Positions 801-55,300 of a DNA stretch of 64,000 bases are shown in pieces. This DNA is from Perna viridis (Eukaryota), in NCBI GenBank assembly GCA_037379345.1, contig CM074520.1, forward strand, positions 13,619,488-13,683,487, read 5' to 3'. The translations under genes and the position numbers were made by a program. Each line of letters begins with the position of its first letter. Position 1 is the stretch's first letter. The notes beneath the pieces are model-generated. The model saw nothing but the letters and a program-made list of their open reading frames with translations. It did not search any database and was not told the origin of the DNA.

Positions 801-944
801 TATATATTGCAAATTTCGATATGCTTTACAGGTGTTTCAAAGAGTAACTTCTCATTTGCAGCATTAGAAATAAATATATAGGAAGATCTAAATCCAAACA
901 TTAATTGCATACAATAAGTACTTAAAACCAAAACTATCTAAATA

Positions 945-1232
945 GGAAGTCAAATCTATCACTGAGAGGTTCTACCATGAGGAAGCCAAATCTATCACTT
1001 AGAGGTCCTACAATGAGGAAGCCATATCTATCACTGAGAGGTTCTACCATGAGGAAGCCATATCTATCACTGAGAGGTTCTACCATGAGTAAGCCAAATC
1101 TATCAATGAGAGATTCTACCATGAGGAAGCCAAATCTATGACTGAGAGGTTCTACCATGAGGAAGCCAAATCTATCACTGAGAGGTTCTAACATGAGGAA
1201 GCCAAATCTATCAATGAGAGGTTCTACAATGT
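945..1232. repeat. Minisatellite, 36-bp unit x8 (ggaagccaaatctatcactgagaggttctaccatga), intronic in the INF2-like gene
   Basis: Eight consecutive copies starting at 945, 981, 1017, 1053, 1089, 1125, 1161 and 1197. Explains the repetitive ORF 934..1236. Confidence 0.95.
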
Positions 1233-2805: not shown

Positions 2806-2895
2806 CTGAAGAATATTAATATTGATAATTTTGGATCTAGATGATTGAAGAAAACAAACAGAATCGTTGGGCACGAAGCACAAATGATTACTTAC

Positions 2896-3532
2896 CTTTA
2901 ATTAACTTTTTGGTATCGTTCTCTTCTCTAACCAGGTAATCCATGCCAAGTTTAGAATTGATGACATGTTTGATACAGTCAACTACTTCTAACAGCAATA
3001 AGGCATCAGCTAGCTGATATACCCGACCGCTACTGAGAGTGTCTACGCAGTCGAGTAATACAGATAGACCCTCAGCCTCCAAAAAACCTTGGATCCAGCT
3101 TTTATCACTTGTTCTTATTTTTTTGTTTATCATTCCGACAGTTTTTACAGTGGGAAGATGCAACATTTTTACACAAATTTCAGGTTCGCAGTTCTCGAAA
3201 TCTGGATTTAGCAAAGCTTCACTTATTCGGTCTTTAAGCCTAAACTTCTTTCTAGAACCTCCTGACGACTCGTCTGTTCTGCCATCACTGTCATAGCTTG
3301 CTGCGTCTTTTTCGTCTTCTTTAATCATATCTTCGTCATGCATTTTATCTGTATTATGAAGTTCTACCGTTACCTCGTTTCCCATCTGTTCTGTGGTATC
3401 ACTTAATGCAATAGCCCTCGGACTATCAACCTCGTCGCCCACCAAATCCTTCTTTTTACTACTCTTTTTCTTCTTCTTTCGATGAGATAATCGATAGACG
3501 GCATTTCTCAGAGACCTGAACAGGGTAGCCAT
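2896..3532 (-). CDS. INF2: Inverted formin-2-like protein, first coding exon (N-terminal DID/GBD-FH3 armadillo region); gene continues beyond the left edge
   Basis: Translation DFENCEPEICVKMLHLPTV...SDKSWIQGFLEAEGLSVLLDCVDTLSSGRVYQLADALLLLEVVDCIKHVINSKLGMDYLV resembles the human INF2 N-terminus (NLESADPELCIRLLQMPS...[36 protein letters not shown]). Acceptor ttctttcag precedes 3548, ATG at 3532, phase-1 donor G|gtaagt after 2896. Could be an INF2-like paralogue rather than the strict orthologue. Confidence 0.8.
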
Positions 3533-33300: not shown

Positions 33301-36300
33301 GTTGAAGAGTGGATCAAATGTTCCCCAGCATACATTGGAATGAACAGAGTCATCACACCAAAACATTCTACATGCAAGGTATGTATTTCTTACACTCATA
33401 TCCCTGGCCTTAACACCTACAATTATCAATGAACACTTATTAAAATCTAATATATCATATGATATAATAACATAATGCACCATGATTAAAAATTACATTT
33501 GTCATAATTATAGACTTTTTGGTAAACCCGGACTTTTAATGATTTCTGTGGATGGTAACAGCCATAATACACCTGTATATGATTAATCTGAAATATTTTC
33601 ATTGCTTTAGTCCTGACATTGAAGAGATCTATTTAACACTGCATTCTATGGCATTTGTTATATTTCAAATATTCACATACTCAAAAATATTTAGCCATTA
33701 AAATGTGTTGATCCTGACCTCTGACCTTGTTGAACTGGAATAGCCCAAATATATACCAGTTTTGCTAAGTAAAATGGTAACAATGGAGCTTGATATCTGT
33801 GATCATTTAAATATACAGAGGCAATATCTGTAAAAGTGCATTTACTTTAAAATTTACCTGGTGGAGATAAGGCATTGGGTTGGGGTGGAAATACTGGATG
33901 CCTTTTCATTGATACTAGTGATGGTATGCCCTGCGTTGAAATGTTTCTACCCTCAGATACCAGTAACAATGTGTGTAAAGTGACATGCTGGAAGAAATGA
34001 ATCGATTCAAATATTATATTGAAAGTCTCAGTTGTAATAATTATTTATGCAAAAAATCTATGAACATTTATGTTCCATATTTTTTAAAACCAATTAATTG
34101 ATATGTGGAAATGTGTTCACTTGAAAGAATCTTTTAAAAATTAATTGGTTTACAGTAGTCTCTGATACAACTAAAACATACAATACCTCATAATCTGTGT
34201 ATTGGGGTTGATAACTGATTTCTTTTGGCACTTGTTGAACACCTTGTGTCATGGGAGTGTTAGATATTACTGGTGGAGCTGTACCTGCATGCATATAAAT
34301 ATGTTTCATGTATCAAGCAGGATTGCCTAATGATATGTGTTCAGAAAATTAATTCACAAAAATAGCCATTAGTATTGATGTCAAGTTCTTTACCTATTCA
34401 AAAATTGTTTTCAAATAAAAAAAATTGCAGTACACATGATGACATTATCTAACATTTACAAAAAATAATAAACTGTAATCTACCAACAAGTTAAATACCC
34501 AGAAGAGTGTCAGAATAACAAGGCATTATTACCATAAATTTAGAGATCAGAGCATTGACTCATTGATCAGATTTGTCAACAAACTGCAAATGTAGTACAT
34601 CAAAATAACAGCTGAATTAGTTGCAGCATTAAAAACACCTCAATAATACCTTAATATTCAAAAGGTTTTTTATACTTACTAGTTTGTATATTAGGTTGTG
34701 CTGTTAAATGCTTTGGTTCTGGCTGTGTGTGAATTACGTTTTGTGAGGGTGCTGGTGGTGGACGAGGCTTTGAGGGAGCTGGGGCAGGAATTGGCACAAT
34801 CTTGGTTTTCCCTGACATCTCTGCAAGTTTGGTCCTTGCAAGGTGTGTTGAGAAGTCTTTACTATCAGATGCTAATTCAATAGACACCTGTAATGGAAGA
34901 ATTTCAGACACGTAATCATACCACAATGTACTTATCAAGGTGTCAAAAGGTCAAAACCACATACATTATCATATATATAGACCAGAGAAATTTTATCATA
35001 AAATGAAATTCAATACTATGAAGCAACTTTTCTCATGGACACATTTTTGAAAATTTTTAAAGAAAACTACAATTTCCAAGAATACTAAATTTTACCACTA
35101 ATAAAAATGTAGGTGTGTGAAAAGAATTAAATACATCAAGGATTCAGGACAAATATTTCCAGCAAAATTTTTGCAATCTCAATTTTATTGCATTTAAAGT
35201 GATTAATAGTAACACTTAACATACCTTTAAATTGCCATACAGGCCATCCATGTCACTTTTATGGACTGACGAGTTGATGGAAGAGTTTTTGTTGGTAGAT
35301 TCTCTGACCTCTAGTTCTTTGTCAACAAACAGTGATTCTGATTTTAACACAGACTTCATTGGAATACCACAACTTCCAATCAATGAGGGCTGAAAAAATC
35401 ATGAGTTTAATTAACAAAGGAAACCATCTCCTTAATTCATGTACATACATTAAATATATTTAAAACATATAAGCATGCAATACAAGTAAATAGTTCTGCT
35501 AACATTTATATGTGTTCCCTTTTTTTAATCATCAAAGATCTGATAATATATCTTATAAAAAGTCATTTAAATCCTTTTATTGTATTTTTCAATTTTATTA
35601 TGATTTTTGGAGAAATAGACAAATAGAGGTACATTTTCATCAAAGAAGAGATTAGATTAAAAAAAATTAAGATTTTCATCTCATTTGAGACATAGTTAAA
35701 ACATTAATGAGAGTAGATAAATGAACAGCTTCTTACCACTTTCTGTCCTGCAGATCTGGCATACACTTTGAATACCAAAGCTGACTTCCACCAATTGTCT
35801 ATAGCATTACCATCAAACATGATAGGGAAGACAGAGCGATGGTTAAACTGTACCACTGGGAAGTATGAAGTATTGAACAATTATTACACTGGGAAGTATG
35901 ACGTATTGAACAATTATTACACTGGGAAGTATGACGAATACAACAATTATTACAGTGGGAAGTATGACGTATACAACAATTATTACACTGGGAAGTATGA
36001 CGTATTGAACAATTATTACACTGGGAAGTATGACGTATTGAACAATTATTACACTGGGAAGTATGACGTATTGAACAATTATTACACTGGGAAGTATGAC
36101 GTATACAACAATTATTACACTGGGAAGTATGACGTATACAACAATTATTACACTGGGAAGTATGACGTATTGAACAATTATTACACTGGAAAGTATGACG
36201 TATAGAACAATTATTACACTGGGAAGTATGAAGTATAGAACAATTATTACACTGGGAAGTATGACGTATACAACAATTATTACACTGGGAAGTATGACGT

Positions 36301-39300
36301 ATTGAACAATTATTAAGTCAATCTGTATAAAAGGGGAGTAATCACATTTGCATATGTGTATGTGTGTGTGTGTGTGTGTGCTTATGTTTTTATTTCTGTT
36401 TGAATTTTTAAGTATGGTTCTGCCTAAAAACCAGGCAGGGTGTGATTCATCATATGTCAAGATAATCAAATTTTCAAATACATTTGAGAGATCCTGAAAA
36501 CAACTCTTCCTATGTTTTTTTTCCTTGGATCTGCTACATGTGGTGAAATATTTTTTGACTGGTTAAAGTGTAAAAATTCTGGCAGGAAATTTTCCCATAC
36601 TTTTATGTAGTAGAGCGTAACAAAATTTTAGTGTTAACATCTAAGGGTGGGCAACTTTCATCTGTAATTTTATTTTCAGGTACAGTTTCTATGAGAACTA
36701 CTGAAGGATTTCCAATCAAAAATATTTGGGATGAACTATATGAATCAGTCATGGCGAAATTCATCGGACTGTCGGACATGACCGGTACTTTTAGCTTCCG
36801 ATCCGGTAAAATTTGTGTGATTTCCGGACCAGATGTCCGGTAAGTTTTTTTTATTAGACAAGCTTCAACCAGAACTTCTGGTTTAAAGATGGCGTCTGAA
36901 TCGCGGAAAATTTTTAATTTTTTTTGGTCCGGCAGATAATTGTTCGGTCCAGTAGATTTTGTTAAGTTGCCTGACCAAATGTCCAACAGGTTGGAAAATG
37001 ATTTCGCCAGGTCTTATGAATTACTAATCATATGCTTCTGTCTGGTTTTAAGACAGAGCTACCCTTAAAAGGTGAACATCAGTATTTCTCTTTACTTAAA
37101 AAATACGCAAACAATAAGAAAATATTGATGGCCAGAATGTGTCCTTTTCAACACTATTATCCATAGACACATTCAATCTAACATATTTTCAACAGAAAAA
37201 TTTCACTTCAGAATAACTTTTGAAAAAAGAATATTCCTGTTTATGCTGTATTTTCTGCACTTTAATCTAAAATTTACATTGTCATTTAAAACAAGGTAAT
37301 TAAAAAATCATCAACTTACATCCATTATTTACATTCTTTGATGCTACCCTCATAACTTCTGTAGCCAGAGCATTTGGAGAATATTTGTCCCTAGATGTTG
37401 CTACAACAGGAAACTGGTATTCGATAAAGAATGTCCTGAAAAACAAAGATCATAACATTACACTTACCTAGATGAACTCTTTGAAGGACACATTAAAATG
37501 GATGAATAAAAAGTCAAATATAAGAGTACACCCACAATTTGGATTAGAACTCATGTTTGTAAGGCCACCTACTATTTGTACATTTGTGCAGTTTTCTTTT
37601 TTTTTTTTGAAAGTTGGACTTCTTTTACCCTGATTTTTTCTCTATATACTTAGAAAATGATATCCGTAAATCTGCATATAAATGAACACACATTTTTTGC
37701 ATATTTTCTGTAATAAAAGTCTAGAAAGAACTCACATAGACTTTTTGCCTTTTGGAGAGGGTTTTGGTGGCTTGCCTACAGTTTTAAATTTGAAGCCTCT
37801 TTTTGAGGATGATGATGTGTTCAGCTCCTGTCCAGTCAAGTGTAAGACATCTATTGAAACTCTTGCCACATGAACTCTACCAAGCAATGTCAGTCTTTCC
37901 ACACTTAAACCATCTACCTTCTTTTTCTTTGATTGCTCATCTGAAGTGCACAAACAATTCAAAATAGCATTTTAACAATACTGTTTGATGGAAATTAACT
38001 TATAATACTTCAAAATGCTACAAAATAATTTTAAAAACCCCACCTTATTTTGCTAAATGAATTAACGTCGAACACTACAAAGAGAAATTTTAACATTTTT
38101 TCCTTTAGTTTTGGCAGCATTGACCAAACAGTTTTCCATAGTGTTGGCAAAATCTTTGCTTTCACTCTCCTTTTACCTACCATATTCAGGCTCATCGAGA
38201 TCTGAGGCAGGTAAATCAAATGACACTTGTGAAATCTCAGATCGTGGTGTACATGCTCTTTCACTGTCACTGTACTCGCTAGCACTACTACGAGCACTGC
38301 TTCTTGACCGTCTACGTTTTTTACTTCCTGTTCTCTTCATTTTCAATCTTGCTTTTCTCTTTGGTGTCTTTGGTCGTTTCTTTGATTTGTTTTCCTTTTC
38401 TTCGACTTCTTCACTAGGTGGAATGTTCATACTGGATATGGACGATCTTCTTGAGGGAGGTCGCTGAAAATGAAAAAGTGTCAGATTAGGAAAGATATGT
38501 TAACTTTCATCAATTTGAAAGTTTATTTGAACAAACTACAAATAAAATTTTTAAAAATCATATTTGTTTAAATTTTCATGGTTTGTGGAATCTTTGTTCA
38601 CAAAAGGTAAAACATGGATCGGCCTTTGATATTAACTGACCTGATTAGCTGGATCCTCTATAGATGCCATACTGGTGTTACTTTTGCTAGATTTGGACTT
38701 CTTCAAATCAATCTCATCACCACTCAGACCACTAAGTTCGCTTGTCTCTGACTCCTATAAATAACATTCAATATATTGGTAATGTTTTTTTTTCTCCATA
38801 ATATTACGAGAATTTCTGAGAACATTTTGGTTTTTGGATCTTCTATACCAGAGAATACTGAATCTATGAAAACCTAAGGACACATTTCATTCACATTTTA
38901 AAATCACCATTTGTAGATGAAACATGGTGTTCAAACAAGTATCATAGGTAGAAAATAAATACATGCTCAGTTAAAGGACACAATAATTATACCAATATAA
39001 AAACACAGATTCCAGGACACTCTGTACAAATATTTTCTTCAGGGCTTACTTTCTGTATACTCTTTCAAGATATAACAGTCAAATTTTCTTATTTTTATAT
39101 TCTTCACTTACTGGATTTCTATAGAACAATTCCTGAAGAATAGATTCACTGTGTATTGGATCTCCTGGATCACTGATCAGATCTATATCTCCAGATATAC
39201 TTGATCCAGGACTGCCATTCATCATCATCTGGTAATACATAATATAAAAAATTAGATTTAAATGATTTTATATTAAGTATTGATATACCTCATAAAAAAA

Positions 39301-42300
39301 GTATAATCCAACATATATTATTAACTCAAGACATTTTGAAAAAAATATCAATGGTGGTTTCCATGGAAATTAACACTGTCATGAATTGTCTCCCTTAGTC
39401 AATTAACCATGATTTTGAAACAACAATACTGAGAATTTTATAACAAAATTAGAACTGTTATAACACTTCCATGAAAATGGAAAAGCAACAACCAAGTTGT
39501 AAAATATAGATAGAAATTATTACTGTTTTAATTGTAAGACTTACATTGTAATCAAAGCCACCAGTACCACCAAACAACAAATCCACAGCTCTAGAGTCTA
39601 AAGCTGATAGGTCAACTTCTTTCTCCTGGTCCTTCTTCAATATCTCTCTGAACAGGCTACCAGTTGATCCTCGCCTAAAATAACATGTACAAACATTATG
39701 ACATTATAAGTAATTTAAAAACTATGAAATTATAATAAAAATATATTTTTGATCAAATTTTCTTAAGGATATTAATGTCAATTAATTCCTTTCACATATA
39801 CTGGTTATATAGTACAGTGGTAAATAACAAAAGTAACAACTTATTTTACTGAATACTGTATTTTCATGAGTGGTTTTGAAATAACTGCAAAAATATTCTA
39901 AGCACTTTATTTTTACCTTTCAGATAACCCAGATACATCAACTCCATTCATACTGACATCAGGACCATTTATTACTTTAGGAACTGTCTCCTTATCTTCA
40001 ATACTTGATATAACCATCTGGTCTCTAAGTTTGTTACCCCTCTCCAATAGAACCGATAATAAGTTCCTGTCTTTCCCAGGCTTTGATGGACTACCTCCTA
40101 AACGTTCAAAATAAAGTTGGTTTCAGACAAAGAAAACAATGTATTCTTCTTGTTTGGCTGTGGTAAGCTCCATAATAAAATATGTGATTATTCTTCATGC
40201 ACTTGAATCAATTCAGGTGAGATTCATTGTTATAACAAATAATTCAACATGAAAGGGGACTTAATAATTGTGTGCACTGATAAGTTATGGAACTTTGAGA
40301 ACAAGATTAGTCATCATATACTGCCATTAACCTACCTTTTTGTTTTGGCTTTTTATTCTTTGAATTCTGATCCAGAAAGCTAAGGTCAGTCGTAACAACA
40401 TCACCATTGGTTGTTATGGCAACAGTGCTACCTGACTTGACTGGTGGTAAGTTATTGCTAGGTAATTCATTAATGCTGTAGTTAAGTTTCTGTCGTAGGT
40501 CAGAGGCATAGTCTGTAAATCCATTAGCCATACCATTTTCATTCTATGGAAAACAATAACAAAATTAATACCATGGCTTATCCTCATCTCTGTAGTCTTT
40601 CACTAGTTCAAAAGAACTCAGGTATGTTGAAGAAGCACAATCATTATTCAACATAGAGTTTGGTCACAATAAGTTTTTTTTTAATTGTGAAGATAATGTC
40701 ATTTTTTTAACCTTTTCATTCTTGTTATTGTGTATAACAAAAAAGGCCATTTCAAACTATACAAAACAGATAAAAAACATGATTTTTTTTTATCCATATT
40801 TAAAATCAGCAAGAAAACAAAATGGCAGTAAAAGAGTGAGAACAACACTAGAAACTAATATCTAAAAGTTGGTAGATACTTTATTTTGTGTTTCAGATTG
40901 TTTTTCAACTAAGGCAACTTATTTCTGCTATGAACTAGTGAACAAGTGTGAAATTATTGAGGGACATTTTGTATTTTCAGATCTTTCAACAATTCTTATT
41001 TTAAGATTATGTTAAATTACAAAAATAAATATCAACCATAAACTAAGTAGGTAGTAATCTCATATGTGCTAATTAGTACCTGATGTGAAGCTGGAGATAT
41101 AAAAGGGTCATCAACTGGTTTCTGTGGAGCCTGAGAATGGGGGACTGGTTGATGTCTTTGTGGATACATTGATTCCTGAGTGGCTTGAGTCTCAAAACTG
41201 ATATCAGTTGTTGGAACAGAACCATTGCTATCATATGATGCTGAAAAATACAAAGAAACATGAAACAGGAAGTTGATCAACCAAAATCGCTTACAGCAAA
41301 TGCCCCATCTATATATATACCCACATTCCAAATTAAGAATCAATCCACCAAATGGTGGACAAAATTCAGATGCATAAACAAAATGATGAGAAGGACAAGG
41401 CCTGTCCTTCCTATTCCATCCACTAGTTGACTGAGGATATAATGGGTTTTGGACAACTTGCATGTCAATGTTAACAACATATAGATTTCAAGCCAGTAAA
41501 ATAATTGGCTATTGTTTTAAGTACAGTCTATATGCACTGCCTGTAGTTAAGTGAGTAGAAAAATCCTCAGAACAAACGATGCTTTTATGATCTACATATC
41601 TTATATTTTTACGTGACATTATTCCTTTCTGTATTTGGGTCTGTACTATTAGTTTGAGAAAACTACACTAATTTCCCACTAAAATCTAACATATTCAAGA
41701 ATGATAACTCTTGCAAGATGCTAATTTCATGTACAATTTATATACATTTCATCTCAAAACTCAAAATCCAAATGAAAAACTAAGACTGGTTATGCAGTCT
41801 ACAGCTGTTTCTAAACAAGAAATGAAATAAAAGTGATTTGGTGGATCATGAATACAGTAAATAAAGAGTAACAAACCATAATATTAAATTGGGAACAAGC
41901 TGTCAATAAATATGGACCACTAGTCTATAAAACATACTATTATCATACATGTATATTACATAAGCATATTTCATGATTTTGGTAAAAAATGTTAATCTTT
42001 GTCAGTAACACATCAATTCACTTATATAAAATATTACCCATCAGAGATTCTAACACCAGAGCTACTTGTATTTCTGCTATCTTCTCGTCTTGATCTGTGA
42101 ATACTGGGAAAAACCTGAATCAAAACAAAAAATCCAGGAATGACATCACTTAAGATTAATACCAGATGTAAATCTCTCTTAATCTGAAGGTTTGCTGTCA
42201 CCATAATACTTGAGGCATACAAGACTAGTTCTAGCTATGAGTGTTGTTATGATCTAATAACCACATTCATCAGGTGGAGCAGTTAACAATAAGAAACATA

Positions 42301-45300
42301 TTGAATGAGTCAAAGTCAAAGACTTTTTCTGAATTCCATACAAAATAATTTGTTTTAGCATGGATTTTTATAGTAAATATAGAAATTTTACCAAAAATAA
42401 ATCGAGCTTAATTCCCATTTATGAGTTTATTAACCAACAATTACAAATTACATTTACTTGAAAATATGAGGGATGAGTATGAATAAATCTCGCCATGCAA
42501 AATTCAATGAGAAGGTGTGAGATTCCAATTCTGTCAACTATAAAAAGCCTTGGTTTTAGAAATAACTGTCAGACTGACATGCTACAAATAAAACCTGAAC
42601 TAAACAATATCAGATGGCATCATTTACAGGCACCAGCCATGGACATGGAGTAGCGGTCACAAATAACATCATACATGTTAGCATTTGTATTTAGTTTTCT
42701 ATGACTTTGCATGAAAACTGAAGAATAAATTCTTTAAATTTAGAGGTCAATAGTTGTATTTGATACACAAAGTCTTCAACTGCAATGAGCTGGTTTATGT
42801 ACTTGTAAAAATGTTCATTTTTAACACATCTGACTATACAAATGCCAACACTGGTAGTCATAAAATACATTAAAAACAAAGTTTAAAAATCCATCATACC
42901 CATTAACAGGACGGCTAGGTGACAATTGTCCAATTTGGGTAACTTCTGCATAGCCGACAGGAATCAATAATGGACCATTCAATACTTCTAGTATTATACT
43001 GCCCATATCACTAAGATATGAGGCAAACTGTTTAGGACCAGATCTAATTGGGTAACGGGCAACTGTTTTACACTGTGATTTATCATTTTTCTTCACATCA
43101 AGTGGTCTGTAAACAGAAAGTTTTATTTTTCAAATTAATATTTAGACACTTTTTATGACCATGCAGGTGAATGAAAAAAAATCCATGTAGAATGTCTTAC
43201 TGTTGTATCTTTTGTATCAAACTATAACAGTAATGTAGTAGGATTCAGTTTTCCTTTCTTAATGTTTTGAAAAGAATGTTTCTGTATTTGCTCAATTAAA
43301 AAAAAATGATGATATTCTGTCAGTGTGTCCTGCAATAAACTTTCATCTGCCTTAGGTTAACTTAAATACCTCTCATTAGAAGTCAATAACTTGATTGTTG
43401 AAACATGTTTGACTTTAACTTGAATATCTGACCTACCAATGAACCATTATTTTGTAGACATATTTGTATGTTTTACCTAAACAATGCCCCATCACTATCT
43501 TCTCCCCACCATTTTACTCGGACATGGGTAACTTCTGGTGGACTTGGAGAAATCCACACAATCTGTTGTATTGATAATCTCAGGAAGCATCTCAATTGTC
43601 CTTCAACCTGGGGAGGTAACCCTGTATGAACTTGTACATCCTCTTTCTGCCATTGTTCACCTTAAAAGCATATATTCATACATATAAATAATTCCATTAC
43701 AATTAACCACGCTAACACAGTTTAGATTAGAAAGAAGAAAGTTTCAAACTCAAAAAAAATATAAAATTGTCATAAATGTTAAAAAGAAAACAGAGAAATA
43801 TAGTATTTTGAGAAAAAAGTTGTTGCCAAGAGACTACAGGTTTATTTTCATGACAGGACAACACAAAATGTCTAATCCTACATTGAATGTGAAAAAAAAA
43901 ATTGTACTAACTAAACAATTGTAAAAAAGTTCTACAGTTTGGGCCAAATGGGGGATTTACAACAAAACTTCATTTTGAATTGGTTAACACAATTTTTGTA
44001 CTTATTAATGTATTAAAATTTAAGATGATAACTATATCACCATGGGTGATAAGAAGGTTACATTATGATGGTTAAGGAATGAAATTTAACAACTGACCTT
44101 TAAATCAGTGAGTCTAATTTCAGCCTTGCAAAAAGTAAATAATTCCTGTACATATGCAGCAGTAAGATGACCCACATCACAAGACAGATAACCTTGTGCA
44201 TGATGATCAGAAAGAATAGTAGAGACCAAATATCCAGTAATGATTAGGATAGTGAGGATACCATAGCTATGATTTGATCTTTATTTAAGTCAGAATACTT
44301 TAGTTCATGAATTGTTTTTGAAAAAAAATCATTTGAAAAAAGTGCTGTATATTCTTAATCAGCCCCTGAATTTATTCTTTTCCAGCTGGTCTACAGTCAA
44401 GTACCTAAGATTAACTGAAGTAATGCCTAGGATAAGGTAGACAGGGACTGCTCTAGCCTAAACAGTTCTAATACTAGCAAGACATATCAAGATCCTAATA
44501 GATAATGTCTTCATCATATTAATCCTAACTAATTCAACCTATGACCTATGAATCATTGAGAGCTTGATTTCAATCAGAGAAGATAGAAAAAAAATTCTGT
44601 GCATAATCAGGAATGAATTTGAAAAATCACAAAACTAGACTGAATACCTTATGAATTGGCTATGTCAGCTAGTGGTACTATAGTCAAAAACAAAGTTCCT
44701 GTGCCAGGGTATGACGCTAACTTTTCTTGCTACGTGTACATAGCCTTTAGGAATTTCTTATAAATAAATTAGGTAGTCCTCAAAATTATTTGGAGATCCT
44801 ATCTTTAGGACTCATAAAATTTTAAGAATTAATTCCTTTGGACTACCAATTAAGGTTTTAAGGTAATATTCTCTCAAAATTGAGTAGGCACAGGACTACC
44901 GCAGCAGTGGTAGTTGAACCCTGAGCACAGTGCTGGATAGGTGTTCGTGATGATAAGACTTTCATACCAAATATAATAGTGTTACAGTTAAATGATTTCA
45001 AATTCAAAATGATGTGATGATAAGTCCTTCATACCAAATATAATAGTGTTACAGTTAAAGGATTTCATATTCAAAATGCAATATTAAAGTTGATGAACGT
45101 TACTTTTATGTGCTATGAAACAGTGATGATAGTTTTTTTATTGTTTACTAAACCCTGGTTCATGACCTCACTTTGTCAACCTGAGAGATATCTGATGACT
45201 GTGCATGCTCCAATAAATTGTATGCAGGTGTAAATAAAATAATTATTTCATTTGTTTATTTTTTTCAAATTAAATATCAATGTACTTTGAGTATTTTCAC

Positions 45301-46065
45301 AATAATTTTGTCTTTGAATTGAGCATAGGCCAAGCAGACATCAGTACCATGATTGTTATCATGATACTTTATTATATATATTTAGTGTATGACCACTAAT
45401 GACATTGGGTCAATGTAAAAGAGTTGCTATAAAAAATGATGGCCAGAATCCTCGAAAAAGGCATTCCCTCCTAAATAAAAATTCGAATTCCTTTCAAAAC
45501 CTAAAATATCATCATAAAATTTGTTTTAATTTGATAAAAAATTATAAGAGGGTGTATATAAGGATGTTTCTAGCTGTAGTTTTCCCTGCTATCATTTTAT
45601 CAATGTTTTATACGAGCTAATTTTCACTGCAATAGCACTACAGGCAGCAAGTAGCTGTGGCTAGTATTCCAAAATCTCAACACAAGATATTACAATCAAT
45701 TGCGAGATGCGAATCCTTCTGTATTTAAACTCCTTTACCTATCAATGGAATAAACTTATTGAGTTGCGGGTTCAGAGAAAAATTCACCATATATACTGCC
45801 CATACTAGCTAAGGATACTCTCAAACGGTGAACCAATCAACGTATGGACAAGCATCCTGTTTAATAAACTAATTTTTTTATCTACTAATCAAAATTAACA
45901 AGCTGTTAAGTTCGCGTGAGCAATGTTGGCACATTTTTACATCTTGCCGCCAACAAGACCGTTTTAGAACATGTTGATACATGGTCAAAATGTAAACAAA
46001 CCATCTTTTCCCACAATACCTTTTTTATTTGATGTCTTATGGACTTTTGCTTTCTTTTTGACCAT
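15396..46065 (-). CDS. C2CD3: C2 domain-containing protein 3 (centriole distal-end/ciliogenesis protein), 45 coding exons, about 2705 aa
   Basis: Exons (5'->3', minus strand): 46065-46020, 43660-43477, 43106-42900, 42114-42038, 41240-41080, 40543-40336, 40097-39917, 39674-39545, 39228-39112, 38754-38641, 38463-38181, 37940-37736, 37435-37320, 35855-35737, 35389-35225, 34887-34680, 34284-34187, 33987-33858, 33416-33292, 32596-32495, 32078-31992, 31581-31477, 31248-31169, 30469-30408, 30001-29852, 29559-29431, 29088-29000, 28419-28282, 27836-27780, 27522-27436, 27066-26962, 26695-26515, 26213-26091, 25835-25599, 24950-24810, 24298-24187, 23388-23230, 22707-22608, 21995-21772, 20983-20827, 20522-20471, 19698-19571, 19207-18780, 18289-16465, 15581-15396. 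All introns are GT-AG with compatible phases; total 8118 nt. Motifs matching human C2CD3 in order: [137 protein letters not shown]. Exon 1 is the least certain. Confidence 0.95.
16182..16373. mobile_element. Degenerate MITE (CAG...CTG ends) in the last C2CD3 intron
   Basis: Left cagtggtaaaagagtaac versus right gctattttttatcgctg, an imperfect inverted repeat. Internal gtagccca/gtagcca repeats. No clear TSD. Confidence 0.35.
16465..18289 (-). CDS. C2CD3: C2CD3 exon 44, 1825-nt Ser/Asp/Glu-rich low-complexity exon
   Basis: Corresponds to ORF 16456..18282. Acceptor ccttccag before 18289, donor AAG|gtctgt after 16465. Carries the [14 protein letters not shown] motif. Confidence 0.9.
23957..24120. 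other. Assembly gap (164 N) in C2CD3 intron 36
   Basis: Run of N. Flanking exons join in phase (TG|G = Trp), so no exon need be missing. Confidence 0.98.
28738..28875. mobile_element. Decayed copy of a common Mytilus-type interspersed repeat
   Basis: aaggccacccatgggtcttcaa...actggccc resembles, from memory, an abundant mussel repeat (gaaggccaccaatgggtcttcaa...cagctggcccc). Not verified by search. Confidence 0.4.
35855..36315. repeat. Minisatellite, 33-bp unit x14, built from the C2CD3 exon-14 splice acceptor
   Basis: Unit actgggaagtatgacgtattgaacaattattac repeats every 33 bp from 35855 to 36284. The first copy on the + strand is the real acceptor (tacttcccag|TG on the minus strand). Confidence 0.95.
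36361..36380. repeat. (TG)10 microsatellite
   Basis: tgtgtgtgtgtgtgtgtgtg directly visible. Confidence 0.9.
36746..37015. mobile_element. 270-bp MITE with imperfect 15-bp TIRs and 6-bp TSD (ATGAAT)
   Basis: Left cagtcatggcgaaat and right atttcgccaggtctt. atgaat lies at both 36740-36745 and 37016-37021. Many internal tccgg/ccgg/tcgg subterminal motifs; GC-richer than the flanks. Confidence 0.75.
44699..44930. mobile_element. Degenerate MITE-like element in C2CD3 intron 1
   Basis: Inverted ends ctgtgccagggt and accctgagcacag. Internal ggtagtcct/ggactacc motifs in both orientations. Confidence 0.4.
44947..45078. repeat. 67-bp-period tandem duplication
   Basis: gtgatgataag..ttcataccaaatataatagtgttacagttaaa.gatttca.attcaaaatg occurs at 44947 and again at 45014. 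Confidence 0.9.
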
Positions 46066-46373
46066 TTCTGTGATGCATATGATTTATTTCATCATAATAT
46101 AATCCTTGTAGCAGGAATGGGGGAGATGCATTTTGTAAAAACAGTTCTGTTACCATCCAAACATTCCTTTCGTTCTGTCCGCCATTCTGAATCTCGTATC
46201 TCGAGATTTCGAAAAAAAAAATGATTTGTTTTCAATTCAACTACTTTAAATATACTTTCATGCAAAATTAAAAATAATAATGAAAAAAAAATGAAAGATT
46301 TACCCCTTTCCCTATCATTTATTAAAGAAAAAAGAAGGATCGGGCACCTGCAGCTTTGAGATTACGGAAAAAG
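46066..46373. promoter_or_regulatory. Putative bidirectional promoter plus 5' UTRs shared by C2CD3 and PPME1
   Basis: 308 bp between divergent start codons (46065 minus, 46374 plus). Local CpG cluster at about 46171-46212, including the palindrome ATCTCGAGAT. Confidence 0.7.
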
Positions 46374-49300
46374 ATGTCTGCTCTCGAGAGACAAGCATTG
46401 AAAAGTAAACTTGGTGGGTTACCACCTATGCCCCCACCCGGCATTGGGTAAATAATTTAAGAATGAAATTTGGATTAAATTACAAAATTAAACATACTTA
46501 AGTCCAGTATTTTTATTGTTTACATAAGCCTTATTGCCCGATTTAAAGATCAAAATATCAAGTTATCCCCCTTGAACTTTGTTTTTTTTTAGCTCTGTGA
46601 ATACATTGCAAGTAAAATAAATTCCTGATCAATTGAATATTAGAAAGATTTGATTTTAAATGCAAAATAGTTCAGCTCACTTCAGACATTCATATTAGCT
46701 AATTATAATTAGCAAATTTGAAAATTTCGAATAGTTCATTTAACTGCTTAAATACTAAAACAGCAAGTGTACATGTAAATTTCTGATGGGCTGATCAAAA
46801 AAGATTCCAATATTGCCTTCTGATTTTTAGGCGGCAGCCTACAACAGTGTTCTAGGATTACCATTTCCCGTTACCCGTGGAAAGTACTTTTTAGGGTCGG
46901 GAAAGTTTAAAAGAGATGCTAGCTGTCCATGGGCAAGTAAAATTTGCCTGAAGTTTATTTTCATTTGGACTTAAATCGCTCCGATTTATCATGATTATAT
47001 CCCGAATTCTGTTTTAAGAAAGTTTCGCTAAAGAATTTGTGTTTCTTACTCATGATTTTCGACAACATGACATTTTTCATAGATGTTATTTTGGCACTTG
47101 TAATGAAGTGTCTGAACGATAGCGATCATTATCATTATCATTGTAATAAGAAATCGTAAATGGAATCAACAACCTGGATTTGTATTTTCACGTGTATGGT
47201 TGCATTTAATTCACGCTTGGTAAGTAAGAACAAATTATTGTCTTTATATATTGAACAATATTTAACCTAAAATACTTCAATGTATATTTTTTCATGGAAG
47301 TTTTTTTTTCAACTCTGGAATCATTGACAGAATTTGAAGGTGTTGTTACCGCAAATGAGTCTTTTTTTTTTATAATAAAAGTATATTTGGTGGGAAAATT
47401 CAAATGTGAAATGAATTTGGAAAAATTTGGATTTAAATCCTCAAAAGGGGACCCCAAGCCTCCACCTGAAAAGAAAGTTAAAATTGACAAACAAAAAAAA
47501 AAAAAAAAAAGGGATAAAGGGTATAATGAAGAGAAAAGAAGCAGGTAATTTCTGCCCTCCTGGAAATTAACTTACCCATAGCTAGAATATAAGGAGGAGG
47601 ATAAGAAAATGTTTTGTTTGTACTGCAAAGAATATCCAACCCTAGCAGGACATAATAGTTTTGTGTCTGGTTCTACCACCTATCACCTTACCAACAAGGT
47701 CACATGATAGTAGCAAAGGTCATATTCAATGTATATCACGGTACAACACAGACCATTCTGCCACTGATTCCAACAAGCTTGGTGCAATAAAAATGCCTAC
47801 TGATGAGTGCAACGGTAATGTGACAATTGACAAGGCTTTCAGTCAACTTGGTGAAACTGAAAAAAAACAGGATGGCCAATTTGTTCAGAATAGCTTATTT
47901 TCTGGGCAAAGAAGGCAAAACACTAAGTGATATGGAAAAGCAATGTACTCTTGCTAAGTCACTTGGTGTTGATGTTGGCTTTAATTACCACAATGCTCTA
48001 TCTGCAAAGCAGTTTATATTTGCTCAAAACACAAACAAAAGCACTAACCTTAAAAGTATCAGGGAAAGTTAGTATATTGACTGGGAAAGTAGATTTTTAG
48101 TAATGACTTTTCCTTGGAAAGTTGACCAAAAAATCCTAGAACACTGTACAAACCACTAAATCAGATTTCCATTACTTTATTTGTTAGTTTACCCATTTTC
48201 CAAAAATCCTCAATAGTTAACCTAGTGTTTAATCTCGCATATATATATGTTAATGATAAATTTAAATTTATGCGTTCAAAATTTCCCGTCTGCATTATTA
48301 CTTCTGTCATGTCAATTGACCTGTATGCTGTTAGCATTTGGTATAATAATAAATAGAATATAATTAAAATTTATATCATACGAAACCTACACATGTGTTG
48401 TTACTTCTTTCAAACTTTCATTGTTTATTATCTGTTAGTAAAGCAGTGACACTTGAAACTCACTCACCCCTGATTACATCCTGAAAAATCCTGAAACTAA
48501 TAATTCTTTATTTAGACAATCTTTACTATGATCACCATTAAAATTGTTTATTTATGTCCAAAGCAGGATACTTTAAGTTCAGATTTATCAGAGTAAATTT
48601 TTCTTACAAAAAATGTACCATTTATTTTAAACTACAAGAAGATATTTTTTTCAGCAAGTCGTCGGCATTGACTTATCTTCCACTTCGACTTATGTAAAGA
48701 TCTTAAAAAAATGTTAATCTACAAGACATTTTTTAAGATTAGTAGTGTCTTCATCAGGTTTTACAGATACACAGAATTGTTTTTTTAATAAAAATTTCTT
48801 TCAATCAAGTTAATTACTTATGGACCAACATTCTTATGTAGACCTTTGATTATTTATGGACCAGCACTGTTTTGTAGTCGCTTGGTCTTCCAAACCTATT
48901 GTTTTCCCAATCTTATTTTCAGCCCTTACATTGTGAAACAATTTGATTACTTTTGTTGCTAAATAAATGCTGGAAATTCAATATTAGAATAGTCAGGTTT
49001 TGATTTGTAAATAAGGGTGTGTAGCTCAGAATTTACAAAATTTGATTGCATCTTGTGTTTTCAGAATTAAAAAAAAATTTTTCAATTTAAAGTGGGCTCA
49101 GGATAAATAGAGGAAGTAGAAATTTTGTAATTAATGATTTTACTAGACTCAAAAATGGTTGAGAACAAATTATATATTGGTCCTGAGTTACCTGGTACTG
49201 ATTAGAATACATTTAAAGTTTTGAGGATCAAAATTTACCTGGTTTTCTCATGCATATGAAAACCCTGTTTCATCAAACAGATTCTTTACAAACTGCAACC

Positions 49301-52300
49301 AAAAAACTATTATTATTATTTCTATCATACAGTTCTCTATACATGGTGTAATCTAGACACCAATGACAAGAAGTTTTAGCAAATTCTGTTTTATCTGTCA
49401 CAAAAACTTCTCCCTGTCAAAGACAAATTACTCCATTCTACCACTAGATTATGCCCTCTTCCTACATAATTTGTACAAAATAGTCAACATTTTGGAATGC
49501 TTATTTTTCATTATCTATTTCTTAAAAAAGGCAACCCTGATCTTAATGTCAATAACAAGAAAAAATCTGCTAAGTTCTCCATAAACCATATAGTTTAGTG
49601 TTGTTGATTTCAAGTTTAGGAATAACTTACAGAATCTTAGAAGATATTAAATTTTCCATAGCCATATTGCACATATGTAAATAATTATTGGCTTAACCAT
49701 TTTTTCAAACAGGTCTAATTGAATTTTAATTGGTACAGATTTCTGATTAAGAACTAATTAATCACCTTTTGATATTGATTTTAAATCTTTTTTATTTGTT
49801 TATCATTGTCAGGATTTTATATTGCACAGTCCATACATTATGATCTGTTCAGGATTTATTGGGTATATGATATATCCAATGAAAATACGGCTACAAAACT
49901 ATATTTTTTCTACAAAATTCACATTTTAATTAAATACAATAAATTTTACACAATTAAAATACATAAATCATTTACACACATTTACATACTTTTAGATGTA
50001 GAACACAAAATGACTAGAATTGATTTTCCTCGGATTATTTTATATTTACAAAACTAGTACATGACAAAAGGAAAACATTCATTGATAAGTAAATATTTCC
50101 TTAAAAAAAAACCATTGAAATGGGAGTCAAATATTTCAAAGAAAAGTCTATTGATAATTCAAGGTTCAATTACTTTTTGAAAAAAAATTACCCAAGTTTC
50201 ATTTTTGTTGTAGATAGAATTGAAATACAGTGTATCCACTGCTAAAGGCACTTTTTTCCAACATGTAGTGTGATATCAAATTTATGCAGAGGGAAATGTA
50301 CTTCTAGCCCTTAATTTTACTCTTCATATCACCTGCTGATGGTGATATACTGTTCAGTTTACATTTATCTTCAATTAACCAACAAAAATATACTCTTTTA
50401 ATCATAAGCATGAGATGCACAAACTTGATATGTTTCCCATCATAAAAAACAACTTCTATATTTTCAGTGGTCATGGTAAAAGAGCTTTAGGAAGGAAGAG
50501 AGATTATACCCCTATTTATTGGGATCACTACTTTGAACACAAACATGATGTCCAGGTCAAAGAAAATGTATCCTTCTTAATTAAAATGAAAGAAAAAGTT
50601 CTACCATGTCATTTTCTTGGAAACTACCAAGTATGAGTTGCAGTTACGTTCAAATTAACATATTTGCATTTACATATATATTTACATGAACATTTTTTTT
50701 CAATTTTTCATATTTTAAGCTCCTGAAGACATTGAACTAAAAGGATCACATTGGTAGCTCCTATTTGATAAAATAGTTATATAGTGGACTTAAGGGATCT
50801 AAATTCAACTGCAATATCTTAAAACTTATGGTTTTCTTTCTTGGAAATCCAAAAGGCATTCCAATTATAGAACGGACACAAATAGCAGTCATTTGGACCA
50901 GGGGTGCCCAAATTAAAATTTTTCCACAATTTCTTTTCACTTAGAAAGAGGCTTACTAGCTGATAACTAGTCAATAGTCACTTGGTGATTTAAGTGCATG
51001 TATTTCCTTAACCAGCATGAAGACATTCAGGGTATATGAATGTGGCAATGAAGGCCATGTGCTGTTGTTTTTACATGGAGGTGGATTTTCTGCCCTGTCA
51101 TGGGCTCTAGTGTCTGTAAGTACTTGTATATTCACTAGTCTGAATTAATGTAAATTATTTCAAGTTTGAACTATTTTAAATCCAATGACAACTGTAACTT
51201 ATTAGACAGTTTCTTGATGATTATGGTTTTTGCTCTACTTTGTATCATTTCATTTGTAAGAGACAAATAAGTGATGATACATGATGATATATGTAATCAT
51301 TTAATGAGAGCCACCATTAAAAAGACAAGCACAAATTTAAAAGAAAAACCACTGTATTCAAGACTTTGAATGAAACTTTGACATGTACATTTTGCATAGA
51401 TGCTAACATATTCTGTTTATTACAACATTGATAAAACGGCTACTTACTTATTTATTTTAGGTATATTTGATTTGCACTATTTAAGAAAATCTTCAATTCA
51501 TGCATTTTAAAACATTTTTTACATTAAAAGATAATACTAATAATTATAATTATGGTTTTTAAATACCAAACTTGTCTTCATTGTGACTACATGCATTTCC
51601 TTTTAAGTTGTCTTTAGAAAAAAAACTAATAAGATGAGAAAATAACCTTAATTTCAGAAAAACATATCCCATTTAGTAAAATGCAGATGTGCTGCTATAG
51701 ACCTCAGGGGACATGGTATGTATTTAGGGATTTTTACTCTATATATTTTATAATTATATTCATAATATGTCAGAAACTAATGCTGTTTTAAATACTTAAA
51801 CATGATGCAAAAAAAATGTGATCTATCAATGATAATTTTAGTCCATAATTACCTCTACTGTTCACTTGAACACTTGTATCATATGTACACATTTAGCTTG
51901 AGTCATATCACACCAGTAACTTCTTTTGGATTAACTTATAAATCCTTAATTTATGAGTTTTTAATTTTGAACAGAAAGAACTGCTAAATGAAGTCCAGCT
52001 TTTCTCTGATTACAGGAGACTCAGTGACTACTAATGACACAGATTTGAGTTCTGATACCATGTCTAGGTAAACTGTTTCAAACCTATCCTCTTTGTGCCC
52101 ACTATCACAAAAGGTCCCAGTAACTTTCTTAGGTAGTAGTTGGGAAGGTTTTACAATAAAAATAATTAAGTATCTCTCCGTCTATGAATCAGGCAAAATG
52201 TGTATAAGTTGTGGCACATGAAGAAAAAAAAAGCTGAGATTTTATTGCATTAACCAAGTATTTATACCTGATAACCATCAAAGTGTAAGTTTTGCCTTTT

Positions 52301-55300
52301 TAAGATATTGATAGGTGAAGTTTAGTTTAAATGCACCAGGGAAAAATGGTGGGAAAATTTCCCCTCACTTTTTCCTTATATAAGGAAATTAGATATATAA
52401 CTTTTTCTCATTTACATGTTAAATAGTAGGTTGGGAAGTAAACTAAGTTTCAATAAAATAACCCCTGGTAGAAATAATTCATATTGGCAATAACAACAAT
52501 GGGACAATTGTAATAAGTAAAAATCCAAATACATAACCCGAATGTGAAAACAAAAAAATTGAATGAAATTGATATTTGATTTTCTATAATATAACATTGC
52601 CATTTTTAACATTAATGACCCTGCTTCTTTTGAAGTTTTATCAGCATAACATTTGTAATTTCAGTGATATTGGTAATGTTGTGAAGGCCTTATATGGAGA
52701 TGACCCTCCTCCAATTGTACTGATTGGTCACAGGTTTGTATCCATTAAGAAATGTGTTAAATTATCTTGTTTGCTTATGTAGGTCTCATAATGTCAGCAA
52801 GAACCATACTTTTTATTAGGGCTATGCCACTATGTGGCGGATGCCCTCCGGTAAAATCAGTCTGTCTGTTTGTCCTTAACAAATCGTGCCCGGGCTGTAA
52901 CTTTGCTGTCTTTTCTTGTATGCTCTTGATATTTGGCATGTGGGTTGATCAGCTCAAGGTGATGTGTCATATACCATGGTTGATGACTTTTGACCTTGAA
53001 ATTTCAAACATGATTTTGCAATACAAAATCATATCCAGGCTGTAACTTGGTTTTTTTTAGTTAAAGGCTTTTGATATTTGGCATCAGGGTAGACAAGCTC
53101 AAGATAGTATGTGGCATACCATTGTTGATAAACTTTGACTTTGAACTTTGAATCAATGATTTTACAGATTCATGCCCAGGCTGTTAATTTGTCTTTTCTG
53201 TAAGCATTTGGTATTTTGCATTAGGGTAGATCAGCTTAAATTTCTGTTTAATTTTGATCCTCCCAAATATTCATAATGATGTTAATTCGTGATCTAATAA
53301 ATGTAACTTATGACAATGATATCCTTTAATCATTTATGCTGTCTTTTTCAGTATGGGTGGAGCCTTAGCTGTACACACAACAATTAGAAATCTCATACCG
53401 TCCTTAGAAGGTCTTGTTGTGATAGATGTTGTAGAAGGTAAAGCCATTCAAAATTATCCTTTTTTAGTTCTCTGGTCATTTTTTATTTGCCTAAGTTTCC
53501 GATTTTGGCACTTTTATAGATATAATTGGAGATGTTTGATTGATTAACACAAAGCAAGTTGTAATCCCCTACCAAGATATTTTTACACTTTCCCAGTGCT
53601 GAATTGCATTGATTTTTACTTTTAAGTTTTCTGCTTTTTTAGCCTTACAAAAACAGCACAAAATTACAACAGCAGTGAAACAATACTTGCAATTAATGTA
53701 TTTACACATGAACAAGTTTTATAAAGATTTTGTGTAGACGGTAAAACCTATCTAAAACTGAATAACCTAAACCATATACTTTCAATCAATTTTGATTTGT
53801 TTTAAACCTGGGTAAACCAAACACCTCTCTAAACCAGATCAATTTTAAAGTCCAAAAAGGGGTTCGCTTTAGGCAGTTTAGGCACCATATACATGTACAG
53901 ATACATGTTTATCAAACTGATTTTGAAACATCCATATATCATTGCTTTTAAAAAGTGGAAGGTTTTTTTTTTTGCAAAGTTGCATTGAGGAAGATGTTTT
54001 AAAGAATCTCTTCATGAAAAATGTTATCTTAATTTATAATACAAATGCATGTACATAAGCGGATGTTAAATAGAAATGTATGATCTTTTTCTATTAATAG
54101 TAATTTAAAAAAAACATCTATCATTGCAGGCACTGCACTTGAGGCATTGACTAGTATGCAAACTTTCCTCAGGGGAAGACCTACAGTATTTAAATCTCTA
54201 GAGCATGCTATTGAGTGGAGGTACATGGTTTATTTGAAGAATTGTTACAGTCCTCAAAGTATTTAAGTTAAAAGCCATTATGCACTGAAGTTGATATAAG
54301 GCTTGTGAAGAAAATTGTTTTAAAATGTTAGTTACCTGTACAAGCTGGTTATATAAAACAGAAAAAAGTCATTATTTTACCCTTGTAAGTTAATCATGTA
54401 AACTTTCTGAATGTGTAATCTGACTCCAAAAAAGGCTGTTACTGCAAAATCTTAAGTTATTCTGAAACATTTGGCTCAAGTTTTTGATTGTTTACAAGTA
54501 CTTGTATATATAAAGGTATTAAGGTTTACTCAATATTGCACAGACTATTGAATTGACATTTTAGTCCAAATTTTATAACAAAATTGCTGCAAAAGTGCAT
54601 ACGAAATATTTAATTTTAAGGCACACTGTTATAATTTATTATTGTTTATTAATCAATTTCTATTTTGCCCACTATCTTTTTGATTCGTAATATTCTACCA
54701 GTGATCAAATTTAAAGGGAAATAGGTGCTAAATGTAAGTTAAATATCTATTTTGATAGTAGAAATTATTGCCCCTTACTAAAATTTGCTTGCACAATTCT
54801 GTATGTATTAAGTTTTGTTATGTAATAACCCAAGAAAATTTAAGTTAGCAAGTGTATATTTTCAGTAATTGCTAAATTTAGTTAGTGGAAAAGTTTGTTA
54901 AATTCAGTACCTTTATTTTTCTGTAGTGTTCGAGCTGGACAGATAAGAAATGTTGAGTCAGCTAGAATATCAATGGTTGGACAATTAAAGAGGTTAGTAG
55001 TGTTCTGCTAAAGTTTTCTCCTGAGATGATGAAAAGGTACTTGTTTTTAGTTATTTATAACATCAAAGTGTCTTTTAAATATATATATATAGGTTAAACA
55101 AGAAAATCAATTACACTGAAGTATCAGATGTTATAATTTGATAGAGTAGGAATTTTGTAATCCTTTTTTTACCCTATCACACAAAGTGGCAAGGTATTCT
55201 GTGATACCCTCCAAAAAGTTGCGTGTCTGCCTGTCTGTCTGTTCCACAACAGTTTCCAGATGATAACATGAGAATGGATCAAAGAATGTATTTGAAACTT

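What the first reader, a model, noticed from the sequence alone, without database searches (positions are those of the whole stretch)
43477..46447. C2CD3 and PPME1 are head-to-head about 310 bp apart, apparently the same pairing as in human
Seen: the C2CD3 first coding exon ([16 protein letters not shown], 46065-46020, phase-1 donor matching exon 2) diverges from the PPME1 ATG at 46374. The spacer shows no recognisable insertion, although both first introns carry transposons. Known (from memory): human C2CD3 and PPME1 are adjacent and divergently transcribed at 11q13.4. Inference: this is a bidirectional-promoter gene pair kept since the bilaterian ancestor, coupling a centriole-elongation/ciliogenesis factor to the PP2A demethylase. 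That suggests either a shared cis-regulatory constraint or a functional PP2A-methylation/centriole link that I do not know to be described.
Basis: partly seen in the sequence, partly recalled or inferred. Interest (0 to 1): 0.75.

Follow-up and report, generated by a model that had tools for sequence, protein, structure and literature searches.

The report
Ancient head-to-head C2CD3–PPME1 gene pair
In this mussel-like bivalve the centriole gene C2CD3 and the phosphatase-regulating gene PPME1 start back to back, 308 bases apart, as they do in humans and other tetrapods; this is likely an old pairing held by a shared promoter, one of several hundred of its kind, and probably not a functional partnership, since another animal group puts a different gene beside C2CD3.

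Summary
Observation confirmed. C2CD3 (minus, ATG 46065) and PPME1 (plus, ATG 46374) diverge across 308 bp, and both exon 1-exon 2 joints appear in 4 of 4 runs laid. The human pair is head-to-head (303-420 bp) and already catalogued as shared with mouse, chicken and Xenopus. Record numbering puts the genes side by side in 6 of 10 molluscs where both could be looked up, so a bilaterian-old origin is likely, though shown for two lineages only. The pair is not unbreakable: it is split in teleosts, lies on different scaffolds in Lymnaea, and none of 40 animal metagenome loci showed a PPME1 exon upstream (only 8 reach 400 bp past the C2CD3 start). In 5 loci (3 related lineages) C2CD3 is instead head-to-head with MRPS21, 221-1302 bp away. 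Best reading: an ordinary ancient divergent pair on a shared housekeeping-type promoter whose partner can be exchanged. A PP2A-methylation/centriole link has no direct support. I found no paper noting the invertebrate pairing, but could not read the main catalogue's list.

The parts
15399..46200 (-). C2CD3 gene (about 42 coding exons)
   Evidence: 41 tblastn segments cover 95% of M. edulis C2CD3, all on the minus strand and in order; 5' extent from contig X2 record 14
46020..46065 (-). C2CD3 first coding exon part, phase-1 donor
   Evidence: joint to exon 2 in 4 of 4 runs
46066..46200 (-). C2CD3 5' leader, continuous with exon 1; holds 7 upstream ATGs
   Evidence: spliced contigs run unbroken to 46177, 46179 and 46200 in 3 of 4 runs; ATG count
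43477..43660 (-). C2CD3 exon 2 (start of N-terminal C2 domain)
   Evidence: PF25339 E 4.8e-18; joints; boundaries
42898..43106 (-). C2CD3 exon 3 region (rest of N-terminal C2 domain)
   Evidence: PF25339 E 8.9e-19; joint to exon 2 in 3 of 4 runs
46066..46373 (.). 308-bp stretch between the two start codons; inferred shared promoter region plus both leaders
   Evidence: length, 31% GC, 7 CpG; promoter activity itself not tested
46179..46188 (-). YY1-like core-promoter motif (one mismatch to the published AANATGGN(C/G)), 120 nt before the C2CD3 ATG
   Evidence: consensus from PMC3491394 passages; binding not tested, motif chosen after seeing the data
46374..46447 (+). PPME1 first coding exon, phase-2 donor
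   Evidence: N-terminal profile scores 34 bits; joint to 50468 in 4 of 4 runs
46370..61043 (+). PPME1 gene (about 16 coding exons)
   Evidence: 14 tblastn segments of M. edulis PPME1 in order; PDB PME-1 match; last exon and stop seen
46845..48146 (.). Degenerate DNA transposon in PPME1 intron 1 (perfect inverted ends, 5-bp flanking direct repeat, broken frames)
   Evidence: many high-depth contigs end at its borders; weak zinc-finger hit PF25431 E 0.048; hAT-like by recall only
44705..44923 (.). Possible miniature inverted-repeat element in C2CD3 intron 1
   Evidence: 6-bp inverted ends and internal inverted 8-mers, loose ends at 44764 in 2 of 4 runs; weak

Best explanation
C2CD3 and PPME1 are two intact, spliced genes that start back to back 308 bp apart, an arrangement likely inherited from the bilaterian ancestor and likely kept because both would start from one short housekeeping-type promoter region, not because the proteins work together. 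Mechanism: both start sites fall in the same few hundred bases (inferred from contig extents), so a rearrangement can separate the genes only by breaking inside a very small target that carries promoter elements for both (inferred). The pair dissolves when that cost is removed: after genome duplication each copy can lose one gene (teleosts, published), or another broadly expressed gene takes the free side (MRPS21 in one invertebrate group, shown at DNA level). Any co-expression would be a by-product of the shared promoter (untested).
For: Gene models, 308-bp gap and joints in 4 of 4 runs. Human pair divergent at 303-420 bp, shared with mouse, chicken, Xenopus, GO similarity score 0. Consecutive tags or accessions on one sequence in Tegillarca, Sinanodonta, Potamilus and M. 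trossulus, within 7 numbers in M. edulis and M. galloprovincialis: 6 of 10 molluscs, three bivalve orders. Partner exchange: MRPS21 exon 1 faces away from C2CD3 at 221, 224, 380, 380 and 1302 bp in L016, L015, L018, L019, L010. Teleost split by reciprocal loss, the route Irimia 2012 describe for co-regulated pairs. About 600 such unrelated ancient pairs are known, 54.8% head-to-head in human. YY1-like heptamer within 200 nt before the C2CD3 ATG in the window and 3 of 12 loci, against 0.007 expected per 200 nt (chosen post hoc).
Against: Linkage is shown in only two lineages (tetrapods, bivalves); no annelid, brachiopod, echinoderm, amphioxus or cnidarian case was obtained. Numbering gives neither orientation nor distance, and 3 of 10 molluscs (M. 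californianus, Pinctada, Mya) are on one chromosome with distant numbers. Start sites were not mapped, and neither two-way promoter activity nor co-expression was measured. The spacer is no CpG or GC island (31% GC). The pair is absent from a list of 52 highly co-expressed ancient head-to-head pairs.
Confidence: 0.62

Rival explanations
1. The pair is old but survives passively: two independent core promoters sit back to back, and a 300-bp gap is simply rarely hit by rearrangements in slowly evolving genomes; there is no shared regulation.
For: Repeated losses (teleosts, probably Lymnaea, the MRPS21 group); not among the 52 most co-expressed ancient pairs; GO similarity 0; no spacer conservation could be shown.
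Against: The gap stayed under 500 bp in both bivalve and human although one and probably both first introns took up mobile elements, and C2CD3 stays head-to-head within 221-380 bp even with a new partner in 4 of 5 loci, which points to a two-way promoter rather than to accident.
Confidence: 0.2
2. The bivalve and tetrapod pairs arose independently; two broadly expressed genes were brought head-to-head twice.
For: No lineage between bivalves and tetrapods was shown to have the pair; new tight head-to-head pairs do arise (EIF2S1-ATP6V1D in vertebrates; C2CD3-MRPS21).
Against: Same two single-family genes, same orientation and a gap under 0.5 kb in both lineages is very unlikely by chance for a given pair (inference; no genome-wide null could be computed here).
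Confidence: 0.08
3. The pairing is kept because PME-1 output must track C2CD3: PP2A demethylation would tune PP2A holoenzymes at the distal centriole where C2CD3 works.
For: A PP2A subunit, PPP2R3C, sits at the distal centriole (PMC11014585 passages). A precedent of a centriole C2 protein in an ancient head-to-head pair with a signalling enzyme exists, CEP120=CSNK1G3.
Against: That paper's text never names C2CD3, PPME1, PME-1 or methylation. Eleven papers hold both gene names and none by title or abstract treats a functional link. Ciliated animals do without the linkage (teleosts; the MRPS21 group). Human divergent pairs do not tend to share function (PMC3815023 passages).
Confidence: 0.07

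Closest known systems
Human C2CD3-PPME1 divergent pair at 11q13.4 (PMC2871058 Table S5 row 494; PMC3815023 Table S1)
   Same: Same two genes, head-to-head, gap under 0.5 kb
   Different: Published range is human, mouse, chicken, Xenopus; that survey held no mollusc, annelid, echinoderm or amphioxus genome. This window extends it to a bivalve.
Conserved ancestral microsyntenic pairs (CAMPs), 5'-5' class, Irimia et al. 2012 (PMC3514665), e.g. HSPD1-HSPE1, INTS7-DTL, CEP120-CSNK1G3
   Same: Unrelated neighbours, divergent orientation conserved, short gap, separable by reciprocal loss after genome duplication
   Different: Four-lineage criterion not shown here (two lineages); co-expression untested; whether the pair is already in their 595-pair list is unknown because the supplement could not be read
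Bidirectional promoters (divergent genes with start sites under 1 kb apart, about 10% of human genes; PMC3815023)
   Same: Geometry, both genes transcribed and spliced, YY1-like motif near the inferred start
   Different: AT-rich, no CpG island; two-way activity not assayed
Genomic regulatory blocks (developmental regulator plus bystander)
   Same: Ancient linkage of unrelated genes
   Different: Neither gene is a developmental transcription factor; head-to-head short gap rather than enhancers in long bystander introns

Membership tests
C2CD3 orthologues | N-terminal C2 domain PF25339 and colinear full-length match | tested here: met
   (95% of M. edulis C2CD3 covered)
PPME1 / PME-1 | Colinear match to PME-1 with alpha/beta hydrolase motifs | tested here: met
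   the segments bearing the catalytic Ser, Asp and His (positions recalled) are present; activity not tested
Bidirectional-promoter gene pair | [quoted passage not shown] | tested here: met
   ATGs 308 bp apart; spliced contigs cover C2CD3 to 46200 and PPME1 from 46370; true start sites not mapped
Bidirectional-promoter gene pair | One fragment drives transcription in both directions | not testable with these tools
   needs reporter assay or stranded 5'-end data
CAMP (Irimia 2012) | The two genes are not paralogues | tested here: met
   C2 domain protein versus alpha/beta hydrolase
CAMP (Irimia 2012) | [quoted passage not shown] | tested here: inconclusive
   two lineages shown (tetrapods, bivalves); no PPME1 record obtained for Owenia, Lingula, Anneissia or Liolophura
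CAMP, co-regulated class | 5'-5' orientation conserved across species | tested here: met
   window plus human, mouse, chicken, Xenopus; orientation in other bivalves not seen
CAMP, co-regulated class | Co-expression above matched neighbour pairs | not testable with these tools
   only contigs available; absent from a 52-pair high co-expression list
Genomic regulatory block | One member is a developmental transcription factor | tested here: not met
   domain content

The most novel reading that the evidence does not exclude
The C2CD3 promoter is an obligately two-way promoter across bilaterians, and its oldest partner, PPME1, was kept from bivalves to humans because PP2A demethylation must be matched to C2CD3 dose at the distal centriole, an undescribed control of centriole length.
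Probability: 0.07. Interest if true: 0.7.

Novelty: new member of a known kind. Interest (0 to 1): 0.3.

Why it matters
If ancestral, it pushes a pair catalogued only for tetrapods back to the bilaterian ancestor and adds one case to several hundred ancient divergent pairs. The more useful point is the partner swap: C2CD3 keeps a close divergent neighbour while the neighbour changes (PPME1 or MRPS21), a small natural test suggesting that promoter geometry, not shared function, holds such pairs. In practice, edits or variants in the C2CD3 promoter (a ciliopathy gene) would be expected to affect PPME1 too.

Tried and rejected
No whole genome is held for this window, so synteny rests on record numbering, metagenome contigs and papers. 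No listed holder is on record as RNA. Depth arithmetic leaves no contig cover between 46201 and 46369 in 3 of 4 runs; no DNA run was laid and an A-rich repeat at 46262-46294 was skipped, so this gap is not used as evidence of start sites. A search of 50% representatives for non-mollusc PPME1 records gave only Lamellibrachia, Ephydatia and Mya as named hits, and only Mya had a C2CD3 record in hand. In an older M. galloprovincialis draft the genes lie on different scaffolds but those PPME1 models lack the N-terminus: uninformative, and a caution for Lymnaea, where both N-termini are present. The taxon of the MRPS21 group could not be fixed: a 99%-supported clade outside molluscs and deuterostomes in a weak 131-column tree. 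An upstream frame in L013 matched nothing. The hairpin over the C2CD3 start codon (z -3.9) is matched by about 4 of 1326 tiles and was picked post hoc: rejected as evidence. Seven upstream ATGs: 3% of 948 window tiles reach this, dinucleotide shuffle P 0.16, and relatives have 1-5: not established. No CpG island. Supplement searches of PMC6292497 (no positive control) and PMC13508932 (pair table apparently not held) found neither gene: uninformative. No complex prediction was run, as binding is not claimed.
Full report
Observation. The window is from a bivalve close to Mytilus: M. edulis PPME1 and C2CD3 are the best or near-best matches, and C2CD3 exons 1-3 are 84% identical to M. edulis. C2CD3 lies on the minus strand from about 46200 to 15399; 41 tblastn segments cover 95% of the M. 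edulis protein in order, and exons 2 and 3 hit PF25339. Coding exon 1 is 46065-46020 with a phase-1 GT donor, and its peptide matches the N-termini of Tegillarca, Mytilus and Owenia C2CD3. PPME1 lies on the plus strand from ATG 46374 to about 61043. The start codons are 308 bp apart.

Transcription. Contigs of four runs from four studies were laid on 42800-51200 (RNA status is the tool's guess). The C2CD3 exon 1-2 joint is in 4 of 4 runs, exon 2-3 in 3 of 4; PPME1 exon 1-2 and 2-3 joints are in 4 of 4. Spliced C2CD3 contigs run unbroken past the ATG to 46177, 46179 and 46200; PPME1 contigs reach back to 46370-46396. Both genes are thus expressed from first exons that face away from each other within a few hundred bases. 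Contigs cannot show true start sites, strand or level.

Human and tetrapods. Two supplements list the human pair as divergent: gap 420 bp, shared with mouse, chicken and Xenopus, GO similarity 0 (PMC2871058 Table S5 row 494), and start-site distance 303 bp (PMC3815023 Table S1). The first survey also held five teleosts, Ciona, two nematodes, three insects, Daphnia, Nematostella and Trichoplax, none listed for this pair, and held no mollusc, annelid, echinoderm or amphioxus. PMC3428666 describes C2CD3 next to PPME1 in tetrapods and on a separate duplicated segment in teleosts.

Molluscs. For 10 species both genes had a tag or accession. Consecutive: Tegillarca (KUTeg_024555/024556), Sinanodonta (ACJMK2_030527/030528), Potamilus (KAK3584372/373), M. 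trossulus (XP_063416182/183, the neighbour being a 320-residue partial model; a full-length model has a distant number on the same chromosome). Within seven numbers: M. edulis and M. galloprovincialis. Same chromosome length but distant numbers, uninformative: M. californianus, Pinctada, Mya. Different scaffolds with both N-termini present: Lymnaea. So 6 of 10 support adjacency, across Arcida, Unionida and Mytilida; numbering shows neither orientation nor gap. No PPME1 record was obtained for Owenia, Lingula, Anneissia or Liolophura.

Other animals. A scan of metagenome contigs with a C2CD3 exon-2 alignment gave 41 loci. tblastn with 15 PPME1 proteins found nothing credible in 41 of 41. A profile of PPME1 N-termini found nothing upstream in 40 of 40 (L041, a weak GC-rich hit, left out; best 6 bits), while the window control scored 34 and 56 bits. 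Most loci are short: C2CD3 exon 1 was located in 13, and only 8 have 400 bp or more beyond it. In 5 loci a different gene faces away from C2CD3: an exon matching mammalian MRPS21 at 7e-6 in the PDB (Pfam Ribosomal_S21 weak, E 0.03), with ATG gaps of 221 (L016), 224 (L015), 380 (L018, L019) and 1302 bp (L010); exon-2 identities of 80-86% make these three related lineages. They fall in one well-supported clade outside molluscs and deuterostomes whose phylum I could not fix. The vertebrate-clade locus L035 has 3.3 kb upstream without PPME1, in line with the teleost split if it is a teleost (inferred).

How it most likely works. Shown: geometry, splicing, tetrapod and bivalve linkage, losses and a partner swap. 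Inferred: both start sites lie in the same short region; that region is a small and costly target for breakpoints; the pair can dissolve after duplication, the route described for co-regulated ancient pairs, or by replacement of one partner. A YY1-like heptamer lies 120 nt before the C2CD3 ATG and 64-133 nt before it in 3 of 12 loci, against 0.007 expected per 200 nt; it was picked after seeing the data and is a general core-promoter motif, so it supports only 'ordinary promoter'. Co-expression and two-way activity are untested.

Functional link. [quoted passage not shown] Searches for both names (11 papers), PPME1 with bidirectional promoter (none), C2CD3 with synteny and amphioxus (none), PME-1 with centriole terms, C2CD3 with PP2A, C2CD3 with uORF and the locus with promoter or deletion showed no paper on a link or on an invertebrate pairing, judged from listings. 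The swap to MRPS21 and the teleost split argue against an obligate link.

Comparison with what is known. About 600 unrelated ancient pairs are described, over half head-to-head. This pair works like one; membership by the four-lineage rule is not shown. It is absent by name from the supplement of PMC7530604, whose Table S2 lists 52 highly co-expressed ancient head-to-head pairs by gene symbol (28 of 52 rows read; my control term HSPE1 also had no hit). The full 595-pair list could not be read, so the pairing may already be catalogued for invertebrates; this bears directly on the novelty claim.

What I saw of each paper. Passages: PMC3428666, PMC3514665, PMC11014585, PMC4773876, PMC3491394. Passages plus supplement rows: PMC2871058 (and its Table S1 whole), PMC3815023, PMC7530604 (parts 1 and 6 of 80), PMC13508932 (search of 2 files). 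Supplement search only: PMC6292497. Others as search listings. Recalled, from no call: the roles of C2CD3 in centriole elongation and of PME-1 as PP2A demethylase beyond their record names, PME-1 catalytic positions, and the hAT-like label for the intron element.

Verdict. Real and correctly described; likely an ancient divergent pair of a well-known kind, with the invertebrate extension and the partner swap as modest additions. Interest 0.3.

Noticed in passing
L010:409-498, L015:3-50, L016:124-210, L018:1632-1721, L019:312-401 (minus strand): C2CD3 is head-to-head with MRPS21 instead of PPME1 in an unnamed invertebrate group (three related lineages): a partner swap that keeps the geometry.
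   Followed up: yes
window 46066-46200 (-): The C2CD3 leader holds 7 upstream ATGs, one starting an 11-codon frame inside the YY1-like motif and two out-of-frame ones overlapping the main start; could damp C2CD3 protein output, but the excess is marginal and not seen in relatives.
   Followed up: partly
window 45981-46000 and 46046-46065: A 20-nt inverted repeat pairs the C2CD3 start-codon region with intron 1 and encloses the first donor (z -3.9); similar scores occur in about 4 of 1326 tiles.
   Followed up: partly
window 46199-46206 and 46382-46389: The palindrome TCTCGAGA occurs only twice in 64 kb, once at the end of the longest C2CD3 contig and once in PPME1 codons 3-6.
   Followed up: no
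window 46845-48146: Degenerate DNA transposon with perfect 15-16 bp inverted ends and a 5-bp flanking direct repeat; its ends are abundant in the laid runs.
   Followed up: partly
L013:860-905: Upstream of C2CD3 this locus has E-box-, NRF1- and YY1-like motifs (labels recalled) and an unidentified divergent open frame at 691-545.
   Followed up: partly
window 2891-3586 (-): Exon of a formin-type gene (Drf_GBD, E 5.5e-10) downstream of C2CD3 on the same strand.
   Followed up: no
window 944-1231 and 35854-36315: Minisatellites: 36 bp x 8 and 33 bp x 14 (the second in a C2CD3 intron); a 164-N gap lies near 23960-24125.
   Followed up: no
P0082/P0083 (M. trossulus) and partial models in other Mytilus records: Mytilus records hold extra, 5'-truncated PPME1 models, some on separate scaffolds; duplicated 3' halves or assembly artefacts.
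   Followed up: no
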